A DNA stretch of 24,664 nucleotides from an uncultured virus (IMG/VR IMGVR_UViG_3300020558_000001) (IMGVR_UViG_3300020558_000001), one strand, 5' to 3'. Shown: positions 851 through 21,600, counted from the stretch's first letter. Numbers and translations: made by a program. Notes: generated from the sequence alone by a model not told the origin.

Positions 851-1807
851 ATGTATGGCTATCATGAACAACTCACAATCGAAGAAATATTTTTGAAAGT
901 AAATCAAAAAGAAATCTTTACTCATGTTTTTGGTAAGTTTCAAGTAGGAGAGTACTTAGTATCTCCATTTAGAAATGATGATAGTCCAGGATGTTGGATT
1001 CAATGGCATAATGGAAAGTTATACTTTACTGATTTTGGTTCATATCATGCTAATTTAGACATGATTGGCATTATTCAGCTAAAGTATAATTTTTCATTTA
1101 AAGAAGCCTTAGACTTTGTTGCTAATTTTAAATGTGATGAGGAACCTGAATATATACAGCAGGCAATTACAGTATCAAAATCCAATTCTTTATGTTTGGA
1201 ATTTTGTCCTAAGCTATTTGATGATTATCATAAAACATATTGGTCACAATATGAGATAACATCTAAACAACTAATTCAAGATAACATATTTGCAACCAAA
1301 TGGTATAAAGTTAATGAGCATTATTTTTTTCCTAATGCAGCAGATACTACTTATACAATATCATTTGTTACTGATGCTAAAATCAAAATTTGTAATCCTA
1401 AATATTCCAGAAAAGGTAAATGGGTTACAAATGCAAATCAAAATGTTATTGGTGGAACATCACAATTACCATTTTTAGGTGAAACTCTTTATATCACTAA
1501 GTCTTATAAGGATTGGAGAGTACTCAAAAACATAGGAATAGAATCTGTTATATATTTTCAGAATGAGGGTATGTTACCTGATATGAACATACTTAGTATT
1601 TATTTAAATGCATTTTCAGATGTTATTATTTTATTTGATAATGATGAGCCTGGTATTAATGCATCTAAAAAAGTTCAAGAATATATTAATGGTGAATTTT
1701 CCAACAAAGCATCTTATTTAACACTTCCTACTAAGGAAAAAGACCCTGCTGATATTATTAAAGCAGGTAATAAATTACAATTAACTAATTTTTTAAATTT
1801 AAAGTAA
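851..1807 (+). CDS. DNA primase (DnaG-like, TOPRIM)
   Basis: Degenerate Zn-finger-like N-terminus (SPFRNDDSPGC...FTDFG), TOPRIM-like YITKSYKD, DxD motif LFDNDEPG and KDPAD. Confidence 0.85.
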   Translation: MYGYHEQLTIEEIFLKVNQKEIFTHVFGKFQVGEYLVSPFRNDDSPGCWIQWHNGKLYFTDFGSYHANLDMIGIIQLKYNFSFKEALDFVANFKCDEEPEYIQQAITVSKSNSLCLEFCPKLFDDYHKTYWSQYEITSKQLIQDNIFATKWYKVNEHYFFPNAADTTYTISFVTDAKIKICNPKYSRKGKWVTNANQNVIGGTSQLPFLGETLYITKSYKDWRVLKNIGIESVIYFQNEGMLPDMNILSIYLNAFSDVIILFDNDEPGINASKKVQEYINGEFSNKASYLTLPTKEKDPADIIKAGNKLQLTNFLNLK

Positions 1808-2451
1808 TGAGAAAAGTAAAAGTTTATTCAACAGCTTTTGGTTTAAAAGCTATTAATTCTGCAGCAACAACTTGGGGTGAACTTCAAGATGATTTATCTA
1901 CTGCCAATGTTACATTTGGTAATATGAATGCTGTAGAAAATGTAGGTAATACTACACTTGTATTGAAAGAAGCAAAATTACCTGATGGTGAGTTTGTACT
2001 TATGTTGACTCCACAAAAGACTAAGTCTGGCTCTGATTATAAAATAGTTAGAGCTACTGTTGTAGAAATTATTACTAAATATGGTGTTTCTGCAAAGGAA
2101 CACTTTAATCGTGATGGTAGAAACTATACTAATAGAAATACAGCAGAGCTTTTGGGGTTAATTGCATTATGGAATGAAAAGCATCCTAAATCTGCTACTC
2201 CTGATGTAAAAATTTCAGGAATTGTTACTCCTAAACTTGAAGTAAGTACTCCAGCTCCTAAACCAGTAGTAGAAAAAATGAGTTTTGTAGAAGTTTTAAG
2301 ACTTGTACTTACTTATGATGAAATAAATGAGTATGAAGATTTAGAATCTTATATTCAAGATGCTATTGATATATTAAGAAATGACTCATCATCTGTAGAA
2401 GGTTTATCAGAAGAAGAAAAATCTTGGATTAACAAGATTAAAAATATGTAG
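1807..2451 (+). CDS. Putative ubiquitin-like (beta-grasp) protein precursor with C-terminal extension
   Basis: Residues 1-75 follow a beta-beta-alpha-beta pattern (RKVKVYST / KAINS / TTWGELQDDL ... LPDGEFVLMLTP) and end in QKTKSG75; directly upstream of E2-, JAB- and E1-like genes; TAATG overlap with primase. Confidence 0.7.
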   Translation: MRKVKVYSTAFGLKAINSAATTWGELQDDLSTANVTFGNMNAVENVGNTTLVLKEAKLPDGEFVLMLTPQKTKSGSDYKIVRATVVEIITKYGVSAKEHFNRDGRNYTNRNTAELLGLIALWNEKHPKSATPDVKISGIVTPKLEVSTPAPKPVVEKMSFVEVLRLVLTYDEINEYEDLESYIQDAIDILRNDSSSVEGLSEEEKSWINKIKNM

Positions 2452-2469
2452 TTGTAGTTGCTTGTTTAT

Positions 2470-2504
2470 AGAGGGTTGGGAGAAATCTTAACCCTCTTTT
2501 TTTT
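2470..2504 (+). terminator. Rho-independent terminator
   Basis: AGAGGGTTGGGA-GAAA-TCTTAACCCTCT hairpin (two G.U pairs) followed by a T run. Confidence 0.85.
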
Positions 2505-2523
2505 CACTTAAAATCACAAAACT

Positions 2524-3723
2524 ATGATAAATATATTTCATTTGTTGAGGATAGCAGCTAAAAAACAAGTTAAAAATCAAAGTATAAAGCATATTGAAGA
2601 ACATATTAGTAAAAGGTTTTATGTAAAAAATGGTGAATTAACTGTATTACAACAAAGGTCACACATATTGTTTACTAAAACATTTCCATTTTATAAATCT
2701 TTAAAACAAGCACTTGATAATTTTGGATTAGATTATGAAATTAGTTTAGGATATCATATAAAAACATTTAATCATAGCCCAGTTGATTACTATTATGCTC
2801 ATAATAATCTTTGTTATACTTGTACATCTGAAAAATTAGATTATTCAACTCAATTTATTCCTAAACTAAATGTTATAATTCATTTTCCTAAAGTAACATT
2901 AACTAATAGAGATAATAAGTATCACACAATCAAGAATTTATTTGTAAAGTTTAGTGTTAATATTTATCATAAAATAGATATGTTAGAAGGTACAAGAACT
3001 ACATTTCATCCTATTGAACATCAAAAAAGATATAGACATTCTCATTTAAATGCAAGTAGTGATATATCATTTAGTTATTTTTGTTTAGGTTCTGATGCTC
3101 CAATATCATTTACTAAAATACTACTTGAAGAAGAATTAACTAAACCTAATACAAGTTGGACTGATACATTTTTATTCTTTTTAAATCAGATTAAAGCTTA
3201 TTTAGTTTATGAATCATTAGAGGGTGGGCCATACATTAAGATTTCTTCTTTAACTTCTTCTAACTATACTATAGAGGATAAAATAGGTGCTCTACAATTA
3301 GACAGAACTTATAATTCAATAGCTAATGCATTTAATGCATTTTATCGTATGCAAATATTTCATTTCTTAAAACAAGGTAATTTATTATTTGCTAACAAAG
3401 TACTTGATGTTAAAAGAGAAGTATTTGATAGAGTAGTATTTAATGAAGATTTTTTAAATTCTTCTGCTTTTGATAATTATTTTAAAGCTAACTACATTGA
3501 ATACACTTATAATAATCTACCTGTAAGTTTTGAATCAGTATTAAACAATACAGAAGTATTATTAGATGAATATGTATTGTTTCAAGGTAAGAAGATATAT
3601 GGTTTAATTAAACCTGAAACTAATTTTGATAACCCTGACGAATTAAAAATTAACGTCAAACAAATTGTAAAAAATTATGTCTATAACAAATTTAGGTCAG
3701 AAATCAGCTCATATCAGATATGA
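2524..3723 (+). CDS. Putative E2-like (UBC-fold) conjugating enzyme
   Basis: YRHSHL (172-175) followed by FCLG (Cys187) resembles the E2 HPN(I/V)...ICL active site; preceded by HFPKV and followed by an amphipathic helix FLFFLNQIKAYL and ESLEGGPY; lies between Ubl and JAB genes. Confidence 0.6.
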   Translation: MINIFHLLRIAAKKQVKNQSIKHIEEHISKRFYVKNGELTVLQQRSHILFTKTFPFYKSLKQALDNFGLDYEISLGYHIKTFNHSPVDYYYAHNNLCYTCTSEKLDYSTQFIPKLNVIIHFPKVTLTNRDNKYHTIKNLFVKFSVNIYHKIDMLEGTRTTFHPIEHQKRYRHSHLNASSDISFSYFCLGSDAPISFTKILLEEELTKPNTSWTDTFLFFLNQIKAYLVYESLEGGPYIKISSLTSSNYTIEDKIGALQLDRTYNSIANAFNAFYRMQIFHFLKQGNLLFANKVLDVKREVFDRVVFNEDFLNSSAFDNYFKANYIEYTYNNLPVSFESVLNNTEVLLDEYVLFQGKKIYGLIKPETNFDNPDELKINVKQIVKNYVYNKFRSEISSYQI

Positions 3724-4768
3724 GAACATTACATTGAAAGGTGAGCCAGTAGTACATCTTTCATCTACAGTATGGGATAAAATAAAGTATTTATGTAAAA
3801 ACATCAATACAGTAGAATGGAGTGGCTCTATTTTCTATAGATTCATATCTGATAATCCTACATTATCTGATGTAACTACATTAGATATTGAAGTAGTAGA
3901 TATTATTCCATTAGATAAGGGTACTTCAGGATTTACTGAATACAATTTTGATTCAAGAGTTGTAAGTTACATGACTGAAATGGATTATTTTGATTTAAAA
4001 ATAGGTCATTGTCATTCTCATCATGAGATGAAAACATTCTTTTCAGGTACAGATATGTCAGAATTAAATGATAACTCTGAATTTATCAAACCTTATCTAT
4101 CTCTCATTGTAAATAATCATCATACATTTTCATGTAAACTTGCATTTAGAGTAGAAGCTGAACCAGTTCTTTACAAGTATCAAGATGTAAATGGTAATTG
4201 GCAAGCAATGATGTCAAAAACAGATGATGCTATTAAAGTAGCTTCTTATGACTGTGTTGTAGCTCCACCTAAAGTTCCATTAATTGTAAGTAGTAAATTC
4301 TTAGAACAGTTTGAACAGATTATGAAACCTAAGCCACAAACTGCAAAGGTTAAATATAAAATGGAACAAACAAGTTTGTTTGAAGATACTTTTGATTGGA
4401 ATAATGGTTTAAAAAGTCCTGTTATTATGAATGATGAGGAATCAGATGATAATCCTACACTCAGAGAATTAGAATTGATGTCTTGTTGTATTTTAAGATT
4501 AGGTCAAAAGATGGATAATGATTCAATAGAAATTACATTAGAAGATATTGAAAATTCTATCAATCAAAGACAAATGAATCTTGAAAAGTATGTTAAACAA
4601 ATTGGTAATAACATTAAAAGATACATTTCTCAATACTGGGAAACAGATATAACTGATGAAGAATTAGAAATGTTTACAGGAGATTTTATTGATGAGCTTA
4701 TTTTCTTACAAGATGAGTTTCCATTTGTACAAGACATTATTTTAGAATTTGATAAATCAATACTATAA
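3677..4768 (+). CDS. JAB/MPN+ (JAMM) metallopeptidase
   Basis: Complete JAMM motif E47...H113-S-H115-x7-S123-x2-D126 (VEWSG...GHCHSHHEMKTFFSGTD); acidic helical C-terminal domain. Confidence 0.9.
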   Translation: MSITNLGQKSAHIRYENITLKGEPVVHLSSTVWDKIKYLCKNINTVEWSGSIFYRFISDNPTLSDVTTLDIEVVDIIPLDKGTSGFTEYNFDSRVVSYMTEMDYFDLKIGHCHSHHEMKTFFSGTDMSELNDNSEFIKPYLSLIVNNHHTFSCKLAFRVEAEPVLYKYQDVNGNWQAMMSKTDDAIKVASYDCVVAPPKVPLIVSSKFLEQFEQIMKPKPQTAKVKYKMEQTSLFEDTFDWNNGLKSPVIMNDEESDDNPTLRELELMSCCILRLGQKMDNDSIEITLEDIENSINQRQMNLEKYVKQIGNNIKRYISQYWETDITDEELEMFTGDFIDELIFLQDEFPFVQDIILEFDKSIL

Positions 4769-4771
4769 ATT

Positions 4772-5494
4772 ATGAGTAGAGAAAGATTTCAAGATGCTCT
4801 ATGGGTTAATAAACCAGTATCTATCCATGTAGGTGGTGCAGGTGGCATTGGCTCATGGTTTTGTTTTTTTGCTACAAGAGCAGGATTTAGAGTACAAGTC
4901 TATGATTTTGACCGAGTAGAAGAACATAATTTAGGTGGTCAACTATTTCTTACTCAAGACATAGGTAACTTAAAAATAAATGCTCTGTCAAATGTAATCT
5001 CTTTGTTTAATGATGATGATTTTCAGTTTTATCATAAAGATTGGAGAATTGATGAGCATATTTCTTATTTTCCATTTAAGAATTATAATGGTTTAACAAT
5101 TATAGTTAGTGCTTTTGATAATATGAAAGCAAGAACTGATTTGTTTAACATTGCTATAAAATTACATAGTGATGAACAAAAAATATTTTTTGTTGATGGT
5201 AGATTACTTATGGAGCAAATGAGGATATATTGTATTGATATGTCAGATGATTCAAAGGTAGAAGATTATGCATTAAATCATTTATTTGATGATTCAGAAG
5301 TAGAAGAATTACCTTGTAGTATGAAACAAGTATCTCATGGTGCTGCTATGATTGCTACTCACATGTTAGGATTTATTACTAATAAGATTAGTAATGAATT
5401 TGAGTGGAAAGATGAAGTATTTAAAGTACCTTATATCTGGGATTATATTATTCCAATGAATAAAATAACAGAGCAATATGACATCACATCCTGA
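4772..5494 (+). CDS. ThiF/MoeB/E1-family adenylyltransferase (Ubl-activating enzyme)
   Basis: GGAGGIG nucleotide-binding loop, YDFDRVEEHNLGGQ, GNLK, SAFDN, DGR and a candidate catalytic Cys182 (ELPCSMK). Confidence 0.9.
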   Translation: MSRERFQDALWVNKPVSIHVGGAGGIGSWFCFFATRAGFRVQVYDFDRVEEHNLGGQLFLTQDIGNLKINALSNVISLFNDDDFQFYHKDWRIDEHISYFPFKNYNGLTIIVSAFDNMKARTDLFNIAIKLHSDEQKIFFVDGRLLMEQMRIYCIDMSDDSKVEDYALNHLFDDSEVEELPCSMKQVSHGAAMIATHMLGFITNKISNEFEWKDEVFKVPYIWDYIIPMNKITEQYDITS

Positions 5495-5975
5495 TTTAAC
5501 TCCAGTATTTTCTATAAGTACTTCACTTAACTACATATGGAAATCTTATACAAATTGCAGAACAGACTCATTCAATCTTAATTTAAATTTTAAAAAAATA
5601 TTGAATTTAAATTTTTGCAGTTTACCCAATTTAAGAACTAAGCAAGAAAAAACACTAAAGTTTTTTAAAGATTGTTTTTTAAGTGCTAATGCTTATGTTG
5701 ATTTCCAACAACAAGGATTACTTGTTGGACAAGGTATTGTATTTGATTATTTAGATTACTGCTTTGATGTAATTGTAATTAGAAAAAATGATATTTCAAT
5801 AAAGTTAAACAACAAACTTTATTATAGAAATACAAATTTAAAAGTATATATTACATCGGAATTTATCACTAAACACAAGAAAGCATTTGATATTGTTTAT
5901 GCAACAGTAAACAAATTAAATATTGAAATTGTGTCAAGAGAGCAGTTAAAATCTATACTGAATGAAAAACAATAG
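5478..5975 (+). CDS. Hypothetical protein coupled to the E1 gene
   Basis: 165-aa ORF overlapping both neighbours; no recognised motif. Confidence 0.7.
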   Translation: MTSHPDLTPVFSISTSLNYIWKSYTNCRTDSFNLNLNFKKILNLNFCSLPNLRTKQEKTLKFFKDCFLSANAYVDFQQQGLLVGQGIVFDYLDYCFDVIVIRKNDISIKLNNKLYYRNTNLKVYITSEFITKHKKAFDIVYATVNKLNIEIVSREQLKSILNEKQ

Positions 5976-6330
5976 AACTAAGGGGCATAGTGCTGAAAGG
6001 CTTTATGCCCTTAAATTTAGAGAGTTATTTCCTAAATGTCAAACAAGTAGATATGCATCAAGAATGATGGATGATGCTGGAGTAGACCTTGTAGGATTAC
6101 CAATGTTAGTTCAGATTAAAGCTGGATTACAAAAAGGTATGAAACCACATGAAGTACTTAAAAACATTAAGGATAATTTACCTGATGAATCTAAACCAAA
6201 AGTATTGATTCATCATAAGGAGGGAGCTAAAGGTAAGAAAAGAGATGAATTTTCTTCTTTAGTAACCATGACGTTTGAAGATTTTTTTAACCTTATTAAT
6301 TTAGCATACAATGATACTAAGACCAAGTAA
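5962..6330 (+). CDS. PD-(D/E)xK nuclease, putative Holliday junction resolvase
   Basis: NRTKGHSAER, GVDL and VQIKAG match the small Hjc-like phage resolvase layout. Confidence 0.7.
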   Translation: MKNNRTKGHSAERLYALKFRELFPKCQTSRYASRMMDDAGVDLVGLPMLVQIKAGLQKGMKPHEVLKNIKDNLPDESKPKVLIHHKEGAKGKKRDEFSSLVTMTFEDFFNLINLAYNDTKTK

Positions 6331-7363
6331 AGAAGAGATAGAAGAGTACAGAAATTCTCCTGCCATTAATCAATCTAAGTTAAAACTTTTACTTGTAAGT
6401 GTAGATACATTTAAAGAAGTAAAAGAACCAGAAATGTTCTTTGAAGAAAAAGAGCATTTTGTAATAGGTAAAGGAGTAGATGATTTTATTACTATGGGTC
6501 AAGAATATTTTGACCAGGAGTATTATCTTAGTAATAATTCTAAACCAAGTGCTACTATAATGTCTATTGTACAACAAGTATTCCAATCTCGCACTAATGA
6601 TGATTGGTTTGCACAAGATTTATTAAGTGCAATAGATGCTCATGCTTATCAACCAAATTGGAAACTTGATACTAAAATTAAAAAAGTTTCTGAAGAAGGT
6701 GAGCAATATTGGTTAGAATTAGTACAAAGTGAAGGTAAAAATGTACTTAGTATAGAACAGTTTGCTAAAATACAATCTATTGTAACTCAATTATTTGAAC
6801 ATGCTCACACTAAGGTTATATTTGAACAAGAAAATAATGTAGATGTTTATTATCAATTACCTATTTATTTTGAGGAAGAAGAATTACAATGTAAAGCTCT
6901 TTTAGATATGGTTGTAGTTGACCATAATTCAAAAGAAATTACTCCTTATGACATTAAAACATTAGGTGATTATACTAAATTCTTTGATTATCAATGTAAG
7001 AAGAGAAGATATGATATTCAAGCAGCATTCTATTTTGAAGCTATATCTGATTGGAGAGATATGAATTTTTCTGATTATGAACTTAATCCTTTCTCATTTA
7101 TAGTTGCATCTACTACTAAACAATGTCCACCATTAGAGTTTGTAACAACTCCTGAATTTTTAAATGTTGGTAAATTTGGTTATGAAGCTGTATCTTTATT
7201 TAATGTTGGTGAAGAAGAACTTGAAACTGGTACTATGATTAAAGGTTTTTCTCAATTATTAAGTGAGTATAAATGGTATGAAGAAAATGGATGGGATGTA
7301 GATAAAGAAATTTATGATGCAGCTGGTGTATTTTATATTGGTTCAGATTATAAAAAACATTAA
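6311..7363 (+). CDS. PD-(D/E)xK exonuclease (RecE/exonuclease VIII-like)
   Basis: AINQSKLK, KALLDMV, YDIKT and YDIQAAFY motifs. Confidence 0.8.
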   Translation: MILRPSKEEIEEYRNSPAINQSKLKLLLVSVDTFKEVKEPEMFFEEKEHFVIGKGVDDFITMGQEYFDQEYYLSNNSKPSATIMSIVQQVFQSRTNDDWFAQDLLSAIDAHAYQPNWKLDTKIKKVSEEGEQYWLELVQSEGKNVLSIEQFAKIQSIVTQLFEHAHTKVIFEQENNVDVYYQLPIYFEEEELQCKALLDMVVVDHNSKEITPYDIKTLGDYTKFFDYQCKKRRYDIQAAFYFEAISDWRDMNFSDYELNPFSFIVASTTKQCPPLEFVTTPEFLNVGKFGYEAVSLFNVGEEELETGTMIKGFSQLLSEYKWYEENGWDVDKEIYDAAGVFYIGSDYKKH

Positions 7364-9556: not shown

Positions 9557-9753
9557 CAATTGGAGAAACATTAAAGAAGCTGATAACAGCAGAGCATTAT
9601 GCAGAAGTAAGAATAACTGTTCCTGATAATTTTATTTCTTTTATTAAAGAAATGCTTCCAGATGACTATGGATACATTGAAGCAAAAGAAGAATCTTATC
9701 AAGAAGTATTAACTATACTTAAAAACACAATGAATGATAACTCAAACAGTTAG
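9553..9753 (+). CDS. Small hypothetical protein
   Basis: 66 aa; coupled to neighbours. Confidence 0.65.
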   Translation: MTIGETLKKLITAEHYAEVRITVPDNFISFIKEMLPDDYGYIEAKEESYQEVLTILKNTMNDNSNS

Positions 9754-10597
9754 AAAAGCATTAGATATAAAACCATCTGGAAGGAGTAGTGATTTCATTA
9801 CTCCTTCTTTCATTCATGGGTGTTTATATAAATGTGGTTATTGTTATATGAGGAGAAATAAACCTGAAGGTATATCAATAGCTACAAATACTGATGAAAT
9901 ATTACAGACTGTATATAATCATGCTCAAAGATTAGGTGTTAAAATACCTAATCAAACTCATGAAAATCTATGGACTTATGATATTTCTTGTAATGAAGAT
10001 TTTGCACTACATGCTAAGTACCACGAATGGGAAAAAATATTTGATTTCTTTACTCAATCTGATTTACCTATAATGGGTACATTTGCAACTAAATATGTAA
10101 ATGATAAGTTGTTAGATTACAATCCTGATAAAAAGATTAGGATTAGATTCTCACTAATGCCACAAAATTTATCTGATATATTAGAACCAAACACTTCATT
10201 AATTTCAGAAAGAATAGATGCTATAAATGATTTCTACTATGCAGGTTATGATGTTCATATTAATTTTAGTCCTATTATAATTATTCCTGGAGCTAAATCT
10301 TTATATGAAGATTTGTTCAAAAAGATTGATTACTATGTGGATGATAAAATTAAAAATGATATACTTGCAGAATGTATTATGCTAACTCATAATAAAGGTA
10401 TGCATGAGTATAATTTAGAACATAATCCTGAAGTAGAAGAATTGCTATGGAATCCTAAAGTACAAGAAAATAAAATATCATCTTATGGTTCTAAAAACAT
10501 TAGGTATAAATGGCAGTTAAAGAATAGGTATATATCTGATTTTGTAAAACTACATGATGAGATAATACCTTGGAATAAAATTCGTTACATTTTTTAA
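9734..10597 (+). CDS. splB: Spore photoproduct lyase family radical SAM protein
   Basis: SSDFITPSFIHGCLYKCGYCYM (CxxxCxxC), YDISCNED (position of the SPL H-donor Cys), FATKYVN, RIRFSLMP and GYDVHINFSPII. Confidence 0.85.
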   Translation: MITQTVRKALDIKPSGRSSDFITPSFIHGCLYKCGYCYMRRNKPEGISIATNTDEILQTVYNHAQRLGVKIPNQTHENLWTYDISCNEDFALHAKYHEWEKIFDFFTQSDLPIMGTFATKYVNDKLLDYNPDKKIRIRFSLMPQNLSDILEPNTSLISERIDAINDFYYAGYDVHINFSPIIIIPGAKSLYEDLFKKIDYYVDDKIKNDILAECIMLTHNKGMHEYNLEHNPEVEELLWNPKVQENKISSYGSKNIRYKWQLKNRYISDFVKLHDEIIPWNKIRYIF

Positions 10598-12489: not shown

Positions 12490-12501
12490 TTTCTATATTT
12501 G
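12471..12501 (+). promoter_or_regulatory. Bacteroidota housekeeping sigma promoter (-33/-7)
   Basis: TTTG (12471-74), 19-nt spacer, TATATTTG (12494-501) = TTTG-N19-21-TAnnTTTG consensus; ~30 nt upstream of ATG 12532. Confidence 0.6.
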
Positions 12502-12531
12502 GCAATTCTTAAACTTTTTAAACCACTTTTC

Positions 12532-13377
12532 ATGAAACATTCACTTCATTCCTCCTTTTACCCACACATTGACGCACAAGATTTTACTAAAGTTACTGCT
12601 AAACTTCGTGCATTTTTTCAGAGTAAAGGATTTTTAGAAGTTCACACTCAAAATAGACTTAGTATTTTAACAGCATGTGAAGACCCATTTAATATTGGTA
12701 CATTTACTTATGCAGGTAAAATATGGCCTCTTCCTCAAACAGGTCAAATGTGGTTAGAACATGAATTATTAACTCAACCTGATGTTCCTGGTTTCTTTTG
12801 TCTAAGTACATCTTACAGAAATGAAAAGAATCCTATTGATGGAAGACATTGCATGATATTCCCAATGTTTGAGTTTGAATTTGCAGGTGATATGAATGCA
12901 CTAATGGAATTAGAAATTGAACTCATTACTTATTTAGGATTTAAAGAGTATGCAGTAAGAGAGTATGAAGAACTTTGTGATGAAGAAGGCATTAGTATTA
13001 TTGACAATGAAATGGAAAACAAACTTTGGCAAGATGTATCTGATGCAGTATTTTTAAGACATTTTCCAGAAAGAACTAATCCATTCTGGAATATGAAAAG
13101 AGCTGAAGATAACACTTCTAAAAAGATTGATGTTATTCTTTGTGGTCAAGAAACTATTGGTTCAGCAGAAAGAAGTTGTGATGTAGAACAAATGAGAAAA
13201 ACATTTTATTCTATTGAAAATGGTAAATATGCTGAAAAACTATTTGATTTATTTAGTCACAACAGAGTAATGGATGAATTAAATGAATTTTTATCTTATA
13301 ACTTTATCCCAAGAGTAGGTGCTGGTATTGGTATTACAAGACTAATAAGAGCAATGAAAATTATTGGTAGCATATAA
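12532..13377 (+). CDS. Class IIb aaRS catalytic-domain-only protein (AsnRS-like / archaeal-type asparagine synthetase-like)
   Basis: Motif 1 region FFQSKGFLEVHT, LPQTGQMWLE, motif 2 SYRNE...RH..IFPMFEFE, ETIGSAER, motif 3 GAGIGITRL; no N-terminal OB-fold. ATG 12532 preferred to TTG 12499, which overlaps the promoter. Confidence 0.8.
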   Translation: MKHSLHSSFYPHIDAQDFTKVTAKLRAFFQSKGFLEVHTQNRLSILTACEDPFNIGTFTYAGKIWPLPQTGQMWLEHELLTQPDVPGFFCLSTSYRNEKNPIDGRHCMIFPMFEFEFAGDMNALMELEIELITYLGFKEYAVREYEELCDEEGISIIDNEMENKLWQDVSDAVFLRHFPERTNPFWNMKRAEDNTSKKIDVILCGQETIGSAERSCDVEQMRKTFYSIENGKYAEKLFDLFSHNRVMDELNEFLSYNFIPRVGAGIGITRLIRAMKIIGSI

Positions 13378-15619: not shown

Positions 15620-18600
15620 TCATTTTTTACTATCAGAATCTTTAATGTCTTTAAGTAAAGGAAGTCTTTTATTTACAATTTTGGTAATTTGTTTTTCTGG
15701 TAACCCTTGCTCTTCAAGTTCTTTTTTTAACAATAATCTTTGAGCTTCTAATCTCTTATTAGTCTTTTTAGTATCATCAAAATACCAATCATCATAAGTT
15801 GTTTTTTCAAATTGTCTTTCCATTTGTTTTGAAAATCCAAAATAAGAATCTCTAACTGCTGATGGTAATGCAATTTTATAAAATGCATTTGCTGTTTTAG
15901 AATCACCTGCATTTACACCTCTTGTAATAGTATCATTACCTTCTATCCACTCTTGAGTTGAATTTATAAATTTAACAACATCATTGTAAAACCTTATAGT
16001 TCCTTGTTCTCCAACTAATTGAGTAAATCCATCAGGTGTAAGATACATGTTAGAAGAAGATAATAACTGTAATGACCTATTTACAATTAAGTTATGTGCA
16101 ATTCTTTCAGGTGAATCCTCTTCATCGTCATCATCCCAAAACATTTTTTTAGCAATTAAAGCCATAGCAATCCAAGCAATTTGTAATGACATTTCAGTTA
16201 CTAATGCTCTCATGTTTTTCATATCTCTCTCAGTAAATTTACCTTCACCAAGCTTACCTTCTTTTATAAGTTTTTCATAACCTACAAATTCATTCATTAC
16301 TTGTTTACCTGTAAAGGTACTACCTACAAAATTTACAGGCATACCTATCATCTTTCTTGCTAATGCTTTTAAAAGAAATGCATACTCACCTAAAATACTT
16401 AAGTTACTTCTTACTCCAGTTTTTTTACCAACAAGATGTCCTATTGCAAAACCAGCTGCACCTGTTACAACTGCACCCATTGGTCCAGCAAATCCCCAAC
16501 CTACAATACTTGTCATTATACTTAATGATGATTTAGTATGAGATAAGTATCTACCTTTGTAACCTTTAACTCCTAATTCTGCATCATCTCTTTCTGTTGC
16601 AAATCTTGTATAGTATTGAGCACCTGCCCAAGTTTTAAACATAGTTAATGCTTTACCCAAAGTACTTGATTTAGCCATCATACCTCTAAGGTTATCATAA
16701 CCTAAACCATGTGCCATACCAATAGCTTGAGATGTTTTAGTTTTAAATGAGGTAAACATTTCTCCTTGTCCTTCTTCCCAATTCTTAATGTTTTCTTCAG
16801 TTCTAAAGTTAGGTAATAATCTACCATCCATATCCATTGCATCCCAAGCATTAACTTTCTCTCCATTTAAACCTGTAATCTCAGTACTTAACATTACTGA
16901 AATCATAAGAGGAGTTTGGTTAAGGTATTCTGTTCTTTTATTAATTTCCATTGGGCCTAACTTATCTAAAACATCTAATGAAGTTTTAACAGAGGCCTTT
17001 TGTAATTCATTAGTTGAATCTTGTAGAATATTATATCTGTCAACTAACACTCTAAGTTTTCTTGAACCTTGAGTACTTAGTTTAGTATTACCTGTTATAC
17101 TTTTAAATAATGAACCTTTAACAATATTTAATGCTCTATAATAATGATGTGGTTCAAAGTGGTCACCAGTTGCTGCAATAATCATATTAGCAATTTGACC
17201 TTCCATGTAGTTAGTAATACCTGAAGATAAGTTATAACCTAATCCTAAGTATCTAATGTAGTTAAATAGATTTTCAAATGCTGCACTTGCAGATACTTGT
17301 TTACCTAAACCAGCTTTTATTTTTAATAGTTTATCTATTTCATTTTGGTCTTTAGTATTATTAATTAAATCATTAAGTTGTTTATTTAACTCTCTTTCTT
17401 TCTTGTTTAATATTCTACCTGATATAAGATTACCTATTCTCTCCATTGCTGTTTTAGGGTCAACATTTTGAGAATCAATTACACCAAATGCTTTTACATC
17501 TCTGTTACCAAGTATAACCCTATTAAACCAATCCTCCATTTGAGTATTAGCTCTTGTTCTTACTCCATCTGTTTGAGCTGCTTGAGAAAATATATTAGTA
17601 ACCCCTGCACCTTGTTTGTTAGTTTTTGGTGTTTGTATTTGAGTATAATGATTTTTCATCATCTCCATGTAAGGTAATAACTCTTGTCTTGCTGAATACT
17701 CAGCAGCCATCATGTTATAGTATCTGATTAATTTAGGTAAATCAGTAGAGCTATCCTGAATAATGTCAGCCATTACTGAGTTCTCTAATATCTTACCAAC
17801 AGGTACTCTCTCACCATACTTAGCTTTTATTGCTTCATAAGTTGGGGGAAGATTAGTTTTTTCACTAATTAACTTTATAACACTTTGTGGCAATTTATAT
17901 AAATCAAGAGTACCAGTCTTTTTAACTTTAAGATTAGACCCAGATGACTTCATTAAATTATTAGCCTTAATTAATTCCATTGTCAACAAGTTATCTATTT
18001 TAGATTTATTGTTGGTTAGAAATTCAGCATTTACTGTTGGCTCTACTTTACCTGTAATAACATCTTCATTTTCAAATGATATAGAACTTTGAGGATTTAT
18101 ACCAAACCCACCTTTTATTCTATCATAAAAATCTACTAATGCATTCCATAGTTTTTTATATAATGAAATATTAGGGTCAGCTAACATTTCTCTAAATCCT
18201 TTTCTTGTAGCAGGTAATGAATTTATAAATACTTGGTCTTGTACATCAGCAGGAAATGAGTTTACAATAGTAGTCATTTGCTCTTGTACTATCTTATAGT
18301 ACTCATACAAGTCTTTGTTTTTTTCAATTTGTTCAAATTTCTTATCATAGTAACCTGTTGATTCACCTGATACATTAGCTACATATCTACCTTGTTTATT
18401 TTGAGATACTGATGTTGTCTTATATCTTCTTGGAATACTAATGTTGTATTCCATACTTGTATTTACAAACTTATCTCCTATTTGTACATCACCATAATGA
18501 TAATAATCTGAACCTGTAAATGGACTTTTAGCAGCTTCATTAAATAAAATATCTGATTGTACTTCAGGACTTAACTCTTCAAATGTACTTACTCCATTTT

Positions 18601-21600
18601 CTTCAAATGCCATTTCTCTATTAGACTCTCTCCACAAGAAGTATTTTTTAATTTGCTTAATTTGTTTATCTACTTCTTCTTTATATGCTTGTTCACTTCC
18701 TAAGTTTTCAATAAGTTCTTTTCTGTGAGCATCATCTACAATATCAAAATATTCATCAGCTAAATCAGGAAATGCTTCTCTAATTTCTCTAAGTCTTCTT
18801 ACATCAAATACTACTACATTTTCTCTAAACCACTCTTGTCTTTCCTGATAAGTTTCTTTTAATAGTTTATTTTTTACTTTATCATCTAATCCTGATACTC
18901 TAATAAGTTTTAATTTCTCTTTAAAGTCAGCTTGCATAGATGCTCTTGCATCAAAAAATTCTTGGTTATATCTATTTACAAGTCTACCAGTATTTCTACC
19001 CATTGACTTTTGAAAGAATATATCAAAGGATGCATTGTTACTAAGACCTAGTACAGATAATACTTGACCCATAGCTTTTAATGCTTTCTCAGCTTTAGTA
19101 AGAGCTTTGTTATGTTTTTCTTCAAATGCTTTAGCCTTACTTATTTTTTCAGCAAATATCCTTTGAGTTATATCCATCATTATTTGAGGGATAAGATTAC
19201 TTGAAGATACATTTTTACTTGGGTCCATTATCATCATATCTACCCAACTAATATCATTTGTAGGGTTAGTAAGATGTTTATAAGTAAGTTCTTCTGTATA
19301 TAATTCTTTAATAGTAGGATGACTATTAATTATATTTTCTAATGCTCTTTTTTGTTTTTGGTCTAATTGATTTTCATACCCAGAAAATGCTTTAGATAAG
19401 TTTTCAAAAAAGTCAATAGTTTGTTGAGGTAATTGCATCTTACCATCTGCATCAAATATTTCTTCTTCAAAAAATATAGGATGACTATTAATAGGGTCAT
19501 TATCAAGGGTAACTTTTTTAGCAGTAAAACTCATTGCTTTATAAAAGTTAATAATCCTCTTAGCTTCATTAATGTCATTTACATTTTCTGATTGCAATAA
19601 AGTTTGTAGTCTTTGTAAATCTTGTTGTGCCTGAAACTTTAATTTACCATAACTATATCCTGATTCAGTATCTGCTATATCATTTTCTAACTGGTCTAAT
19701 CTTTCTTGTAATTGATTTTCTTTTCTTGCAAAAGACAATGCTTCCTCTTTTGTTTCAGCATTTTTAATTAAATTTTGAACATTAGCAATTCTATCTTTAA
19801 TCTTAGACTTTAATGACTTTTTATAATTTAGTACTTTATCAAAGTTAGTTATTACTTCATCATCTAATGTATCATCAGTTTCTAATCCAGGCTCTTCTTG
19901 AGTTTGTTTTTGTTCTTGACTTGTTGCATACTCTGCTGCTAAATCATCAAAGTTAAATTCATCATCTACAAACTCATCAACATCTGATTCTTCTTTTGGG
20001 TCAAATGATGTATCTTGAGATGGAATAGATTCATCTTGAGATAATTGAAACATATAATTTCTGTTATCATCAATTTTAAATTTGTTATCAAAATATTTTA
20101 AATTTTGATAATCATAAACATCTTTGTTTCTACCCATAACAAATAATTTAGGTAGATAACTATATTCTGGAGTAGTTAAATTAATATTATATACATCATC
20201 ATGTATAACTTTTACTTGCTTTGGTTCTATAAAAAAGTCAATTAAGATTGTTTCTTTTTGTTCTGCTAAAGATAATGATTCATAAATATCTGATAACCTT
20301 AATCCTTTTTCTTTTCCAACTTTAAATTTTTTATCTATCTCTGGATTAGTTATATAATAATGAAGTGCATTATAGTTCTCACCTTCATGAAACCAATTTG
20401 CAAAATAATTAAGTGAATCTCCATATTCATTTTGTAAATCACTAAATAATTCTGTATTTTCAAATTCTTCTTGAGTTAATTTTCTTGTAATTGGTAACCC
20501 AAATAAATCCTGTGAGTTAAAATATGTATCTATATCATGTAGTAATCCTTCTTTACTTCTTTTTAATTGACTAACTTTTCTTAATGATAATGAACCTGTA
20601 ATGGCTCCATTATTTTTACTAATTAATTGCATTAGCTTTACAGCTTTTCCACCATCTTCTTTATTTTGTTCTTGTATTGTTTCTAAATAATCAGTAGTAG
20701 TAAATCCTTCATCATTATAAATTTTAAAATAATCTAAATTATTATTTAAAACATTACCTGCTATTTCATTAATTAAATCTTTAAACTTAATATTTTTTTC
20801 TAATTTAATTGCATCTTTATAACTTAACCCTAATAGTTGTCTAATTAAATTTACAATTTTTTCTAATAATATTTTTACATCAGTAGGTAACTTTATAAAA
20901 GATTGAGAATTATAATCAATCATTGCCATTGCTAAAGCTTTACCAATAGCTTCTTTTTGAACTTTTTTCCAATCTACATTTCCTTCTGCATCTTTATAAA
21001 TATTACTATACTCATTATAAATAGTTTTATAACCTTCCCAAGCTGAAACAGTTTTAAATAATTGTTGACCAATTTCACTATTTTTGTAATTAGAACCTAA
21101 TAATTCAAAAACGGCATGAGCTATTTCTTCTGGTAGTGTTAAAACATTTCTTTCATCTTTACTTACAACTTTAATAGTTTTATTTATAATGTCAGTTACT
21201 CCTAAGATATTTAAACCAAATTCTTGTTTAAGTTTATTTAAAGTAGTTTCTTCTATATCAAAATGAAATTGTTTTAAAAAATCAATTAATTTTTTTTCTA
21301 ATTTAGGATTGACTTGTTGAGTAAATAATGTATAATATTCATTTTTAAATTTACTATTATATACAGTATTAACTAAATCACTATATGTTTTTATATTCTT
21401 ATTTTTATCTATAACAAATTTTAAATATTGTTTTGCTTTAGTGTTAATTGGTAATTTATCAATATCTGATTTAGTAACATTTTGATTAAAATTTACTTTA
21501 AGTAAAGCTTCTTTTACTTCTTTTGTATAAACAACTGATTGAAGCTCACTATTTTTTTGAAATAAATAATCTTCATCGTATTCTAATCCTGCTCTTTTAG

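What the first reader, a model, noticed from the sequence alone, without database searches (positions are those of the whole stretch)
1807..5494. Complete phage-encoded ubiquitin-like conjugation operon (Ubl-E2-JAB-E1) inside the replication module
Seen: four consecutive co-oriented genes: a beta-grasp-like protein ending its first domain at KSG75, a protein with HSHL...FCLG (Cys187), an intact JAMM peptidase, and a ThiF/E1 with candidate Cys182. Established: Ubl+E1+E2+JAB is the minimal conjugation set in bacterial systems such as type II CBASS Cap2/Cap3, Bil, Bub and PRTRC-type loci, several of which are anti-phage. Inference: here the phage carries the machinery, between primase and resolvase/exonuclease, and may tag host or phage proteins (host takeover, counter-defence, replisome control). 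I recall ThiF and MPN genes being annotated singly in crAss-like phages, but I know of no functional description of a phage-run ubiquitination pathway. No sulfur-transfer genes lie nearby.
Basis: partly seen in the sequence, partly recalled or inferred. Interest (0 to 1): 0.92.

Follow-up and report, generated by a model that had tools for sequence, protein, structure and literature searches.

The report
Phage-encoded ubiquitin-like conjugation gene block
A freshwater crAss-like phage, like many of its relatives, carries next to its DNA primase a conserved set of four genes that look like a complete ubiquitin-style protein-tagging kit, which would be a virus of bacteria running its own tagging pathway.

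Summary
The four co-oriented ORFs exist as described: 1807-2451, 2524-3723, 3677-4768 and 4772-5494.

- **ORF 1807:** residues 1-75 model as a beta-grasp whose best matches are ubiquitin, NEDD8, SUMO and MoaD. It ends in an invariant K-S-G75. In three relatives the gene stops 1-3 residues after that Gly.
- **ORF 2524:** it has no Pfam, NCBIfam, PADLOC or PDB sequence match. Its model nevertheless aligns mainly to E2/UEV/RWD folds (Z 4.5-6.2). H174 and C187 are invariant in 178 of 178 family members.
- **ORF 3677:** it carries a full JAMM motif, invariant in 16 of 16.
- **ORF 4772:** it is a ThiF-type E1 above Pfam's cut-off, and Cys182 is invariant in 17 of 17.
- **Synteny:** the order Ubl, E2-like, JAB, E1 holds in 25 of 31 related loci. 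The other 6 are cut by contig ends. The loci include Flavobacterium phage Fpv3 and the Crassvirales phage cr111_1.

Best reading (0.6): a phage-run Ubl activation and conjugation cascade with no E3 and unknown targets. It works like the PRTRC/6d and Bil operons but fails the sequence membership tests for both. No biochemistry was done. My literature searches found no description of it.

The parts
851..1807 (+). DNA primase (Toprim). This is the upstream neighbour, and its stop overlaps the Ubl start.
   Evidence: phrog_12622 6e-47 and Toprim_2 1.6e-4. It lies directly upstream of the block in most related loci.
1807..2031 (+). Ubl domain (residues 1-75): a beta-grasp ending in the invariant T-K-S-G75.
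   Evidence: The AF2 model gives strand-strand-helix-strand-strand, with pLDDT 81-91 over residues 1-70. Foldseek matches MoaD, NEDD8, ubiquitin, ISG15 and SUMO at probability about 1.0 and TM about 0.6 by target. In the VIA wide search, 50 of 50 rows align model residues 1 to about 72, all of them I recognise by title being ubiquitin-fold domains, at Z 6.2-7.6. TKSG is invariant in 23 of 23. dN/dS is 0.16-0.21.
2032..2451 (+). C-terminal extension of the Ubl protein (residues 76-214): a helical part (76-125), a disordered linker (129-156) and terminal helices.
   Evidence: Model. N106, T108 and L115 are invariant. The extension is absent in L021/L022, L023 and L025, where the Ubl ORF ends KSGR*, KSGK* or KSGNKN*. 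dN/dS is 1.47 in the one pair tested.
2470..2505 (+). Terminator-like hairpin (12-bp stem, 5 G-C pairs) followed by T8, between the Ubl gene and the E2-like gene.
   Evidence: Found by the scan. A hairpin plus T-run sits at the same place, with unrelated sequence, in 13-14 of the 15 loci checked that have a gap of 54 nt or more.
2524..3723 (+). E2-like protein: a UBC-like core (about residues 50-245) with Y-x-H172-S-H174-L, then F-C187-L-G, then W/Y-E230-S231-L-E-G234-G-P236; plus a variable C-terminal domain (about residues 250-399).
   Evidence: AF2 pLDDT 81.9. In the VIA wide search at least 30 of 50 rows are E2 enzymes by title, and most of the rest are UEV or RWD domains. Top hits are Ubc8 at Z 6.2 and Bub entry 9eav chain D at Z 5.6. 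Invariants were counted in 178 sequences. The family has 3288 clusters at E<=0.001.
3677..4768 (+). JAB/JAMM metallopeptidase (N-terminal half, about residues 20-160) with a variable C-terminal half.
   Evidence: E47, then H113-S-H115, x7, S123-x-x-D126, invariant in 16 of 16. The motif aligns onto the JAMM motif of CSN5. Prok-JAB PF14464 scores 16.6 bits, below its 25-bit cut-off.
4772..5494 (+). ThiF-type E1 adenylating enzyme: a single domain of 240 aa with invariant Cys182.
   Evidence: PF00899 at 1.2e-14, 54.5 bits against a 28.1-bit cut-off. The profile's best PDB match is UBA5 at 1.6e-16. Invariants are R5, G22, G24, G25, D45, D47, N53, Q57, K68, D116, N117, R121, R144, C182 and K185, in 17 of 17.
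5478..5975 (+). 165-aa ORF of unknown function overlapping the E1 stop. It may or may not belong to the set.
   Evidence: It has no family hit. It is found only in closer relatives: L003, L004, L008, L011-L014 and L020.
5962..7363 (+). RusA-like resolvase (5962-6330) and exonuclease VIII/PD-(D/E)XK protein (6311-7363). These are the downstream neighbours.
   Evidence: phrog_244 1.9e-09 and phrog_412 2.1e-29. They are conserved downstream in most loci.

Best explanation
The block is a phage-encoded ubiquitin-like protein conjugation cassette, conserved in the replication module of crAss-like phages. The proposed steps are listed here, and all of them are inferred except where marked. (1) ORF 1807 is made as a precursor, a 75-residue beta-grasp Ubl followed by a 139-residue extension. 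The JAMM peptidase (ORF 3677) cuts after Gly75 to free the Ubl carboxylate. (2) The small ThiF-type E1 (ORF 4772) adenylates Gly75 with ATP, and its invariant Cys182 takes the Ubl as a thioester. (3) The Ubl passes to the invariant Cys187 of the E2-like protein (ORF 2524). That Cys lies 13 residues after an H-S-H motif, in the same order along the chain as the HPN motif and catalytic Cys of classical E2s (the classical motif is recalled, not tested). (4) No E3 is encoded. The variable C-terminal domain of the E2-like protein would choose the target, and the Ubl would be passed directly to a lysine, as proposed for Bil and type II CBASS. (5) The JAMM peptidase may also remove the tag. The targets are unknown; the position of the block suggests replication or host-takeover proteins. 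What is shown here: the folds on predicted models, the motifs, their invariance, the gene order, purifying selection, and natural stand-alone Ubl genes that end just after the Gly.
For: - **Ubl fold:** the AF2 N-terminal domain has pLDDT 81-91. Foldseek hits are MoaD, NEDD8, ubiquitin, ISG15 and SUMO at probability about 1.0. In the VIA wide search, 50 of 50 rows align model residues 1 to about 72, at Z 6.2-7.6 and rmsd 1.9-3.3 for all but one (5.1).
- **Ubl C-terminal Gly:** TKSG75 is invariant in 23 of 23. Across the loci the motif reads K-x-K-[S/G/A]-G.
- **Natural split at the Gly:** in L021/L022, L023 and L025 the Ubl ORF ends KSGR*, KSGK* or KSGNKN*. A separate 44-51 aa ORF then starts on the stop codon.
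- **E2-like protein:** at least 30 of the 50 best VIA rows, out of 48,161 chains, are E2 enzymes by title. C187, H174, G189, E230, S231 and G234 are invariant in 178 of 178. The Atlas lists Prok-E2_D clusters as leads.
- **JAB:** the full JAMM motif holds in 16 of 16 and aligns to the CSN5 motif.
- **E1:** it passes Pfam's ThiF cut-off, UBA5 is the best PDB match at 1.6e-16, and Cys182 is invariant in 17 of 17.
- **Synteny:** the order Ubl, E2-like, JAB, E1 holds in 25 of 31 related loci. The other 6 are cut by contig ends, and no locus with room lacks a member. L032 also carries the block.
- **Selection:** dN/dS is 0.10-0.54 for the enzymes and 0.16-0.21 for the Ubl domain.
- **Sulfur genes:** no sulfur-relay or sulfur-insertion family was found among the window ORFs scanned.
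Against: - Nothing biochemical was tested: no thioester, conjugate or target is known.
- The E2 assignment rests on a predicted model and on Z scores of 4.5-6.2. The tool itself warns these can reflect a common arrangement. Foldseek against the PDB found nothing.
- No Pfam E2 family hit any of the 119 members scanned. PADLOC and NCBIfam gave nothing for this protein.
- Whether C187 superposes on an E2 catalytic Cys could not be checked, because no residue-level structural alignment is given.
- The E1 has G-G-Q where ThiF/MoeB/E1 enzymes have an Arg-Gln (the motif is recalled). The PDB alignments cover only about residues 17-124, so the equivalence of Cys182 to an E1 catalytic Cys is untested.
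- ThiS/MoaD sulfur carriers match the Ubl domain as well as ubiquitin does.
- Part of the Ubl extension is well conserved (N106, T108 and L115 invariant), so it is more than a throw-away propeptide.
- A terminator-like hairpin separates the Ubl gene from the enzyme genes.
Confidence: 0.6

Rival explanations
1. The block is a sulfur-carrier pathway. The JAB exposes Gly75 and the E1 adenylates it. With a host sulfur donor, the Ubl is converted to a thiocarboxylate. That thiocarboxylate feeds a phage-specific thio-modification of a nucleotide, of DNA or tRNA, or of a cofactor. The 399-aa protein would be the sulfur-accepting or sulfur-inserting enzyme rather than an E2.
For: - MoaD, TtuB and ThiS-type carriers are among the best structural matches of the Ubl domain: 6jbz_B at rank 2 and 5gha_H, 5mpo_B, 6jc0_A and 1vjk_A, and an Atlas ThiS cluster at TM 0.72 by target.
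- The best NCBIfam hits of the E1 are ThiF models, at 3.2e-17 but below their cut-offs.
- Operons combining ThiS/MoaD, JAB and E1 for sulfur assimilation are described in passages of PMC1779556.
- The block lies in a nucleotide-metabolism and replication module.
Against: - No rhodanese, cysteine desulfurase, PP-loop or other sulfur-transfer family was found among the window ORFs scanned.
- The fourth protein matches E2/UEV/RWD folds, not a known sulfur-insertion enzyme.
- An invariant His-x-His...Cys pattern in E2 order is what a transthiolation enzyme would have.
Confidence: 0.12
2. The set does processing and activation only, with no tagging of other proteins. The Ubl domain acts as a cleavable chaperone or solubility module for the C-terminal extension, as has been proposed for lambda tail assembly protein I with the JAB of protein K. 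The E1 would adenylate something else or only bind. The E2-like protein would be a non-catalytic UBC/RWD-type scaffold in the replisome.
For: - A phage Ubl with a terminal Gly, a C-terminal domain and a JAB, without E1 or E2, is a described precedent (PMC1779556, passages read).
- Part of the extension is invariant.
- RWD and UEV domains, which are inactive E2 folds, score as well as true E2s.
- The E1 lacks the Arg of the recalled NxxRQ motif.
Against: - C187, H174 and H172 are conserved in 176-178 of 178 members, which an inactive scaffold need not keep.
- Cys182 of the E1 and its nucleotide-binding residues are invariant.
- Stand-alone Ubls with no extension still keep E2, JAB and E1 beside them.
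Confidence: 0.1
3. The set is counter-defence by interference. Its real substrates are the host's own Ubl-type immune pathways (Bil, type II CBASS, PRTRC-like). The phage JAB would strip host conjugates, and the phage E1 and E2 would mis-charge or sequester host components. Under this reading the phage Ubl is a decoy.
For: - Ubl-type systems occur in the presumed host phylum: PRTRC_B/Prok-E2_D was found in 8 of 301 and 9 of 401 sampled Bacteroidota genomes.
- The E2-like and JAB genes evolve faster than E1 and primase, with dN/dS of 0.37-0.54 against 0.10-0.28.
- JAB enzymes reverse conjugation in CBASS and Bil (PMC11601596, passages read).
Against: - There is no sequence link between the phage proteins and the host PRTRC B or C proteins: hhalign probability is 0.3% and 0.1%.
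- The block is kept in phages of different hosts (Flavobacterium, Bacteroides, lake-water relatives) regardless of which defence systems those hosts have, which was not examined here.
- A decoy role would not need a full set with invariant catalytic residues.
Confidence: 0.1

Closest known systems
PRTRC cassettes, which are operon class 6d of Iyer, Burroughs and Aravind 2006 (PMC1779556): PRTRC_C (Ubl), PRTRC_A (JAB), PRTRC_B (Pfam Prok-E2_D) and PRTRC_ThiF
   Same: Both have four separate genes for Ubl, JAB, E2-like and a small single-domain ThiF-type E1. Both are carried by mobile elements, and PRTRC occurs in Bacteroidota. The PRTRC Ubl ends GTKG* in 9 of 9, close to the phage's KTKSG. The function of PRTRC is also unknown.
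   Different: - No member passes a PRTRC model: E1 scores 40.2 against a 144.75-bit cut-off and JAB scores 13 against 101.8.
- The phage E2 and Ubl show no profile similarity to PRTRC B or C.
- The 6d E2 lacks the upstream His and has a His after the Cys (Table 1 text), whereas the phage E2 has H-S-H before the Cys.
- The phage Ubl usually carries a long extension.
- The gene order differs.
- No ParB family was found among the window ORFs scanned.
Bil (BilA-D) antiphage operons
   Same: Both have a Ubl, an E2, a JAB peptidase and an E1, with no E3. In Bil the E2 is proposed to pick the target and the JAB exposes or removes the Ubl (PMC11601596, passages read).
   Different: [quoted passage not shown] The only PADLOC hit is a marginal BilD match (E 0.029), and there are no BilA, BilB or BilC hits. 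Bil is a bacterial defence system, whereas this block sits in a phage.
Bub (6E/DUF6527) operons
   Same: Chain D of the Bub complex entry 9eav, which I take to be its E2 domain, is one of the best structural matches of the phage E2-like core: Z 5.6, rmsd 3.6, 112 residues aligned, 14% identity. Both are divergent non-canonical E2s.
   Different: Bub works through Tyr and Ser oxyesters and lacks catalytic cysteines, whereas the phage E1 and E2 keep invariant Cys residues. The phage block has no BubE-type serine protease.
Type II CBASS Cap2/Cap3
   Same: Both combine E1, E2 and JAB chemistry. The phage E1's nucleotide-binding region hits PADLOC 'E1-E2' models (best 5e-09, residues 17-81) and PDB Cap2 (1.1e-06).
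   Different: Cap2 is an E2-E1 fusion, and its substrate is the C-terminus of a CD-NTase rather than a Ubl. No CD-NTase or effector family turned up among the window ORFs scanned.
Lambda and T1 tail assembly protein I (Ubl) with protein K (JAB)
   Same: This is a phage-encoded beta-grasp with a conserved terminal Gly followed by a second domain, and a JAB predicted to cut at that Gly.
   Different: It has no E1 or E2, and it sits in a tail module rather than a replication module.
UBA5 / UFC1 / UFM1
   Same: UBA5, a minimal E1 (its dimeric state is recalled), is the best solved relative of the phage E1 profile at 1.6e-16. UFC1 appears among the fold matches of the E2-like core (7nvk at Z 5.3, 3kpa at Z 4.7).
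   Different: It is a eukaryotic pathway. The alignment covers only the nucleotide-binding half of the E1.

Membership tests
Ubiquitin-like beta-grasp modifiers | Beta-grasp fold | tested here: met
   On a predicted model (pLDDT 81-91 over residues 1-70). Foldseek probability about 1.0 to MoaD, NEDD8, ubiquitin and SUMO. VIA gives Z 6.2-7.6 with 65-73 residues aligned in 50 of 50 rows.
Ubiquitin-like beta-grasp modifiers | Conserved Gly at the end of the fold that becomes the C-terminus | tested here: met
   G75 is invariant in 23 of 23. The Ubl ORF ends 1-3 residues after it in L021/L022, L023 and L025. Cleavage in the fused forms is inferred.
Ubiquitin-like beta-grasp modifiers | Covalent attachment to targets | not testable with these tools
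   Needs biochemistry or mass spectrometry.
UBC/E2 superfamily | UBC alpha/beta fold | tested here: met
   On a predicted model (pLDDT 81.9). At least 30 of the 50 best rows out of 48,161 chains are E2s by title, at Z 4.5-6.2. The scores are modest, and Foldseek against the PDB found nothing.
UBC/E2 superfamily | Catalytic Cys at the UBC active-site position, after a His-containing motif | tested here: inconclusive
   H172-S-H174 and C187 are invariant and lie in E2 order between strand 4 and helix 2 of the model. No residue-level superposition was available.
UBC/E2 superfamily | Sequence match to a curated E2 family (UQ_con, Prok-E2_A to Prok-E2_E) | tested here: not met
   0 of 119 members hit any E2 Pfam family at E<=1. 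hhalign against PRTRC_B/Prok-E2_D gives probability 0.3%.
JAMM/MPN+ metallopeptidases | The E...H-x-H-x7-S-x2-D metal-binding motif | tested here: met
   E47, H113, H115, S123 and D126 are invariant in 16 of 16 and align on the CSN5 motif.
JAMM/MPN+ metallopeptidases | Pfam Prok-JAB above its gathering score | tested here: not met
   16.6 bits against a 25-bit cut-off, E 0.0071.
ThiF/MoeB/E1 adenylating enzymes | Pfam ThiF above its gathering score, with the nucleotide-binding loop | tested here: met
   54.5 bits against a 28.1-bit cut-off. G22, G24, G25, D45, K68, D116 and R121 are invariant.
ThiF/MoeB/E1 adenylating enzymes | Catalytic Cys able to take the Ubl | tested here: inconclusive
   Cys182 is invariant in 17 of 17. 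The PDB alignments stop near residue 124, so the positional equivalence was not tested.
PRTRC system (NCBIfam TIGR03735-03738) | Members pass the PRTRC_A, PRTRC_B, PRTRC_C and PRTRC_ThiF models | tested here: not met
   E1 scores 40.2 against 144.75 bits. JAB scores 13 against 101.8 bits. The E2 and Ubl proteins have no hit. hhalign shows nothing for B or C.
Bil system | A BilD-type multi-domain E1 and BilA, BilB and BilC homologues | tested here: not met
   PADLOC gives BilD at E 0.029 only and no BilA, BilB or BilC. The phage E1 is a single 240-aa domain.
Type II CBASS | An E2-E1 fusion (Cap2) next to a CD-NTase | tested here: not met
   E1 and E2 are separate genes. No CD-NTase family was found among the ORFs scanned.

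The most novel reading that the evidence does not exclude
crAss-like phages, including cultured gut crassviruses, run their own complete ubiquitin-like conjugation cascade. It would use a previously unrecognised E2 family of more than 3000 sequence clusters that is found almost only in viruses. The modifier would be released from a fusion precursor at an invariant Gly and made from its own transcription unit. During infection the cascade would tag host or phage replication proteins. That would be the first Ubl conjugation pathway encoded by a virus of bacteria, and the mirror image of the bacterial Bil defence.
Probability: 0.45. Interest if true: 0.9.

Novelty: new variant of a known kind. 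Interest (0 to 1): 0.78.

Why it matters
In the papers read here, the bacterial Ubl-conjugation sets are host defences against phages (Bil, type II CBASS) or operons of unknown function, some of them on mobile elements (6d/PRTRC, Bub). This block puts the same kind of machinery in lytic-type crAss-like phages, next to the primase.

The set is widespread. The E2-like family alone has 3288 clusters at 50% identity. Only one hit came from a pattern scan of 185,579 species' genomes, and that hit is itself a phage-like contig.

The block is also present in cultured phages: the Flavobacterium FpV4 group, Bacteroides phage DAC17, and a Kolpuevirus on B. cellulosilyticus. crAss001-type annotations are carried by cr111_1. 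The question is therefore directly testable at the bench.

If the cascade is active, it gives a new route of phage control over host or phage proteins and a new, divergent E2 family with a classical-looking His/Cys site. It would also give a function to genes that public records call 'thiamine biosynthesis protein' or 'hypothetical protein'.

Tried and rejected
- **Complex prediction** (E1 + Ubl 1-75 + E2-like 35-250, with E2-like as the partner): no verdict, score 0.00 in two runs, controls not run. This says nothing either way.
- **Foldseek of the E2-like model against the PDB:** no match at E<=0.001.
- **BFVD:** 5 matches at E<=0.001, none with a functional name (4 'Uncharacterized protein', 1 unnamed), in crAss-like viruses or podoviruses.
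- **PDB sequence and profile searches:** only chance-level rows for the E2-like profile (E 1.9) and the Ubl profile (E 1.2).
- **Pfam on 119 E2-like members:** no E2, UEV or RWD family.
- **PADLOC and NCBIfam:** nothing for the Ubl or E2-like proteins.
- **hhalign of phage profiles against Bacteroidota PRTRC proteins:** PRTRC_B gives probability 0.3%, although the one short local alignment puts FCLG on VCMG. PRTRC_C gives probability 0.1%. The PRTRC alignments were shallow, with 9-10 close sequences each.
- **Search for shorter Ubl homologues:** 5 hits of 41-102 residues, which the tool warns may be contig-end fragments, not informative.
- **Genome-contig scan:** it could use only one peptide pattern and gave 1 locus, so 'virus-restricted' is only as good as that pattern.
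- **Atlas look-ups:** all scores were under 0.9 and all structural matches under the naming bar, so they are leads only.
- **Sequencing runs:** no RNA holder is listed.
- **Earlier findings of this scan:** none for this place.
- **Literature:** None returned a paper describing ThiF, JAB or E2 genes of crAss-like phages as a Ubl pathway.
  - 'crass-like' + 'thif' returned 0 papers.
  - 'crass' + 'thif' + 'phage' returned 1 irrelevant paper.
  - 'phage-encoded' + 'ubiquitin-like' + 'thif' returned 0 papers.
  - The main text of PMC7886860 holds none of ThiF, ubiquitin, MPN, JAB, E1-like or metallopeptidase.
  - Supplements, subscription journals and the 2018 crAss-like family paper (not held) were not seen and could mention the block.

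Full report
**What is there**

One search shows a long run of + strand genes with overlapping or nearly touching ends. In order they are:
- a 260-aa protein of unknown function (46-828),
- a Toprim primase (851-1807),
- the four ORFs of the finding (1807-2451, 2524-3723, 3677-4768, 4772-5494),
- a 165-aa ORF of unknown function (5478-5975),
- a RusA-like resolvase (5962-6330),
- an exonuclease VIII/PD-(D/E)XK protein (6311-7363).

The names come from PHROGs and Pfam. G+C is 23-33% throughout.

The rest of the window holds a glucosaminidase-type endolysin, a dUTPase, an SF1 helicase and a 2107-aa ORF with no family.

The nearest annotated relatives of the E1 are Flavobacterium phages of the FpV4 group (43% identity) and Crassvirales from Bacteroides and human faeces. 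There the gene is called a thiamine biosynthesis protein. The tools treat the window's genome as a virus record. The stretch is held near-identically by lake-water and wastewater metagenome runs; leaving out possible sources, that is 11 rows from 9 studies with at least half of the sampled words.

**ORF 1807 (Ubl)**

No curated family matches this protein; it hits only phrog_15560, of unknown function. In an alignment of 23 homologues the N-terminal 75 residues end in an invariant T-K-S-G.

- The AlphaFold2 model has strand-strand-helix-strand-strand over residues 2-69 at pLDDT 81-91. Confidence dips at residues 71-80. A helical part follows (76-125, pLDDT 86-89), then a disordered linker (129-156) and terminal helices.
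- Foldseek against the PDB returns almost only ubiquitin-fold proteins over about 75 columns: MoaD, NEDD8, ubiquitin, ISG15 and SUMO. Probability is about 1.0, TM is about 0.6 by target, and E is 5e-3 to 3e-2 for the whole 214-residue query.
- In the Foldseek-independent VIA search, 50 of 50 listed rows align model residues 1 to about 72, at Z 6.2-7.6; all of them I recognise by title are ubiquitin-fold domains.

The strongest evidence that Gly75 becomes a C-terminus comes from relatives. In L021/L022, L023 and L025 the homologous ORF stops 1-3 residues after the Gly (KSGR*, KSGK*, KSGNKN*). A separate 44-51 aa ORF then starts on the stop codon. Other relatives read KTKGG, KIKGG, KVKSGG or KTKAG at this point.

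The beta-grasp is under purifying selection (dN/dS 0.16 and 0.21). The extension gave 1.47 in the single pair tested.

**ORF 2524 (E2-like)**

No Pfam, NCBIfam, PADLOC or PDB sequence match exists for it, nor for any of 119 diverse family members.

The family is large. A profile search of 1.84 billion representatives gave 3288 clusters at E<=0.001, with the 150 listed hits 298-571 aa long, mostly about 350-450. Over 178 sequences the conserved positions lie almost wholly between residues 119 and 237:
- H174, C187, G189, E230, S231 and G234 hold in 178 of 178.
- S173 and P236 hold in 177.
- H172 holds in 176.

The AF2 model (pLDDT 81.9) reads as follows: helix 57-67, four strands (70-83, 98-127, 133-146, 155-158), the Y-x-H-S-H-L loop, Cys187, then helices 193-205 and 212-227. 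That is the order of elements of a UBC fold as I recall it.

Foldseek found nothing in the PDB. VIA-align against 48,161 chains gave a list in which at least 30 of 50 rows are E2 enzymes by title. Most of the rest are UEV or RWD domains, by my reading of the titles. Top rows are Ubc8 at Z 6.2 (119 residues aligned), a 'novel ubiquitin-conjugating enzyme' at Z 6.0, and Bub entry 9eav chain D at Z 5.6. The scores are modest, and the tool warns about that. The coherence of the list is the argument.

The Atlas independently lists Prok-E2_D clusters, partly viral, as weak leads. The region after residue 250 is variable and has no assigned fold.

**ORF 3677 (JAB) and ORF 4772 (E1)**

The JAB carries E47 and H113-S-H115-x7-S123-x-x-D126, invariant in 16 of 16 relatives. 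This motif aligns on the JAMM motif of CSN5. The Pfam score is below its cut-off.

The E1 passes Pfam ThiF, at 54.5 bits against a 28.1-bit cut-off. Its profile matches UBA5 best (1.6e-16), followed by PaaA, UBA6, UBA1, SAE2, MccB, ThiF and MoeB. The following hold in 17 of 17: an N-terminal Arg (R5), the glycine loop, D45, D47, N53, Q57, K68, D116, N117, R121, R144, Cys182 and K185. Where ThiF-type enzymes have Arg-Gln after the Asn (recalled), this family has G-G-Q.

**Conservation of the set**

I searched 29 IMG/VR loci found with the E1 and two GenBank phages with the window's proteins and with profiles.
- The order primase, Ubl, E2-like, JAB, E1 is found in 25 of 31 loci.
- The other 6 (L008, L010, L017, L020, L027, L029) are cut by a contig end inside or before the E2-like gene.
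- No locus with room lacks a member.
- Several loci are identical copies, which leaves about 17 distinct lineages.
- E1 identity to the window runs from 100% down to 30%.

A pattern scan of one genome per 185,579 prokaryote species found one locus. It is a 54.5-kb contig binned with a Flavobacteriales MAG, and it has the same phage block.

In public phage records the E2-like gene is 'hypothetical protein' in every annotated row listed.

The only sizeable gap in the gene run, 72 nt between the Ubl and E2-like genes, holds a 12-bp G+C-rich hairpin followed by T8 (2470-2505).

By itself the count of such sites in 8.3 kb (2) is what shuffles give (1.6, sd 1.4). However, a strong hairpin with a T-run sits at the same place, with unrelated sequence, in 13-14 of the 15 lineages checked that have a gap of at least 54 nt. 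That includes Fpv3. Four lineages have gaps of 28 nt or less and no hairpin.

I read this, as an inference, as a transcription stop or an RNA 3'-end element. It would let the modifier be made at a different level from the three enzymes.

**How it most likely works**

See Best explanation: JAB cleavage after Gly75, adenylation and thioester formation on E1 Cys182, transfer to E2 Cys187, and direct transfer to targets chosen by the variable part of the E2-like protein.

The E2-like gene has the highest dN/dS of the enzymes in two of the three pairs (0.41, 0.54, 0.41), and JAB exceeds it in the third. The other ranges are JAB 0.20-0.51 and E1 0.10-0.26. This fits a target-facing or conflict-facing role, but three pairs are few.

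**Comparison with known systems**

The same four-part list with a small E1 defines class 6d of Iyer et al. 2006 (PMC1779556; passages and Table 1 text read). I show here that class 6d corresponds to the PRTRC cassette:
- PRTRC_B and Pfam Prok-E2_D hit the same genes.
- Those genes are flanked by PRTRC_C and PRTRC_ThiF.
- PRTRC_B/Prok-E2_D was found in 8 of 301 and 9 of 401 sampled Bacteroidota genomes.

The phage proteins fail every PRTRC model and every profile comparison. The phage E2 has its His residues before the Cys, unlike 6d. So the block works like 6d/PRTRC and Bil but is not a member of either.

Bub differs in chemistry, using oxyesters with no catalytic Cys (PMC11601596, passages read). 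The lambda protein I and protein K pair is a phage precedent for a Ubl plus a JAB only.

**Verdict**

Activity and targets are untested.

I rate it a new variant of a known kind: a virus-encoded set with an unrecognised E2 family and a fused modifier precursor. It is of high interest. My searches of the held literature found no description of it, but supplements and subscription papers were not seen.

Noticed in passing
window 2470-2505; same position in L001, L004, L009, L011, L012, L014, L015, L018, L021, L025, L026, L028, L030: A terminator-like hairpin plus T-run directly after the Ubl gene. It is conserved in place but not in sequence across divergent relatives.
   Followed up: partly
L021 1530-1733, L023 4286-4454, L025 3287-3482: Where the Ubl is a stand-alone ORF ending just after the Gly, a 44-51 aa ORF starts on its stop codon (TAATG). 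Whether this ORF is related to the fused extension of the window's protein was not established.
   Followed up: partly
window 9734-10597 (+): A 287-aa protein matching spore photoproduct lyase (PF20903, 5.4e-26), a DNA-repair enzyme family, in a phage.
   Followed up: no
window 12499-13377 (+): A 292-aa protein matching only the catalytic core of class II aminoacyl-tRNA synthetases for Asp, Lys and Asn (PF00152, 2.1e-19; phrog_29758, 9.2e-98, unknown function). It has no anticodon-binding part.
   Followed up: no
window 15620-21943 (-): A 2107-aa ORF with no Pfam or PHROGs hit. From memory, crAss-like phages carry giant RNA polymerase-like proteins of this size, but this was not tested.
   Followed up: no
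window 5478-5975 (+): A 165-aa ORF overlapping the E1 stop. It has no family and is kept only in the closer relatives (L003, L004, L008, L011-L014, L020). It could be an accessory of the set.
   Followed up: partly
L033-L042 (Bacteroidota genomes): PRTRC loci read PRTRC_C (72 aa, ending GTKG* in 9 of 9), then a protein of about 390 aa with no NCBIfam hit, then PRTRC_B (Pfam Prok-E2_D), then PRTRC_ThiF.
   Followed up: partly
L026 6983-8128; L028 3716-5803; L032 4822-6951: Some relatives have enlarged members: an E1 of 381 aa with a C-terminal addition, and E2-like proteins of 695 and 709 aa with long N-terminal additions.
   Followed up: no
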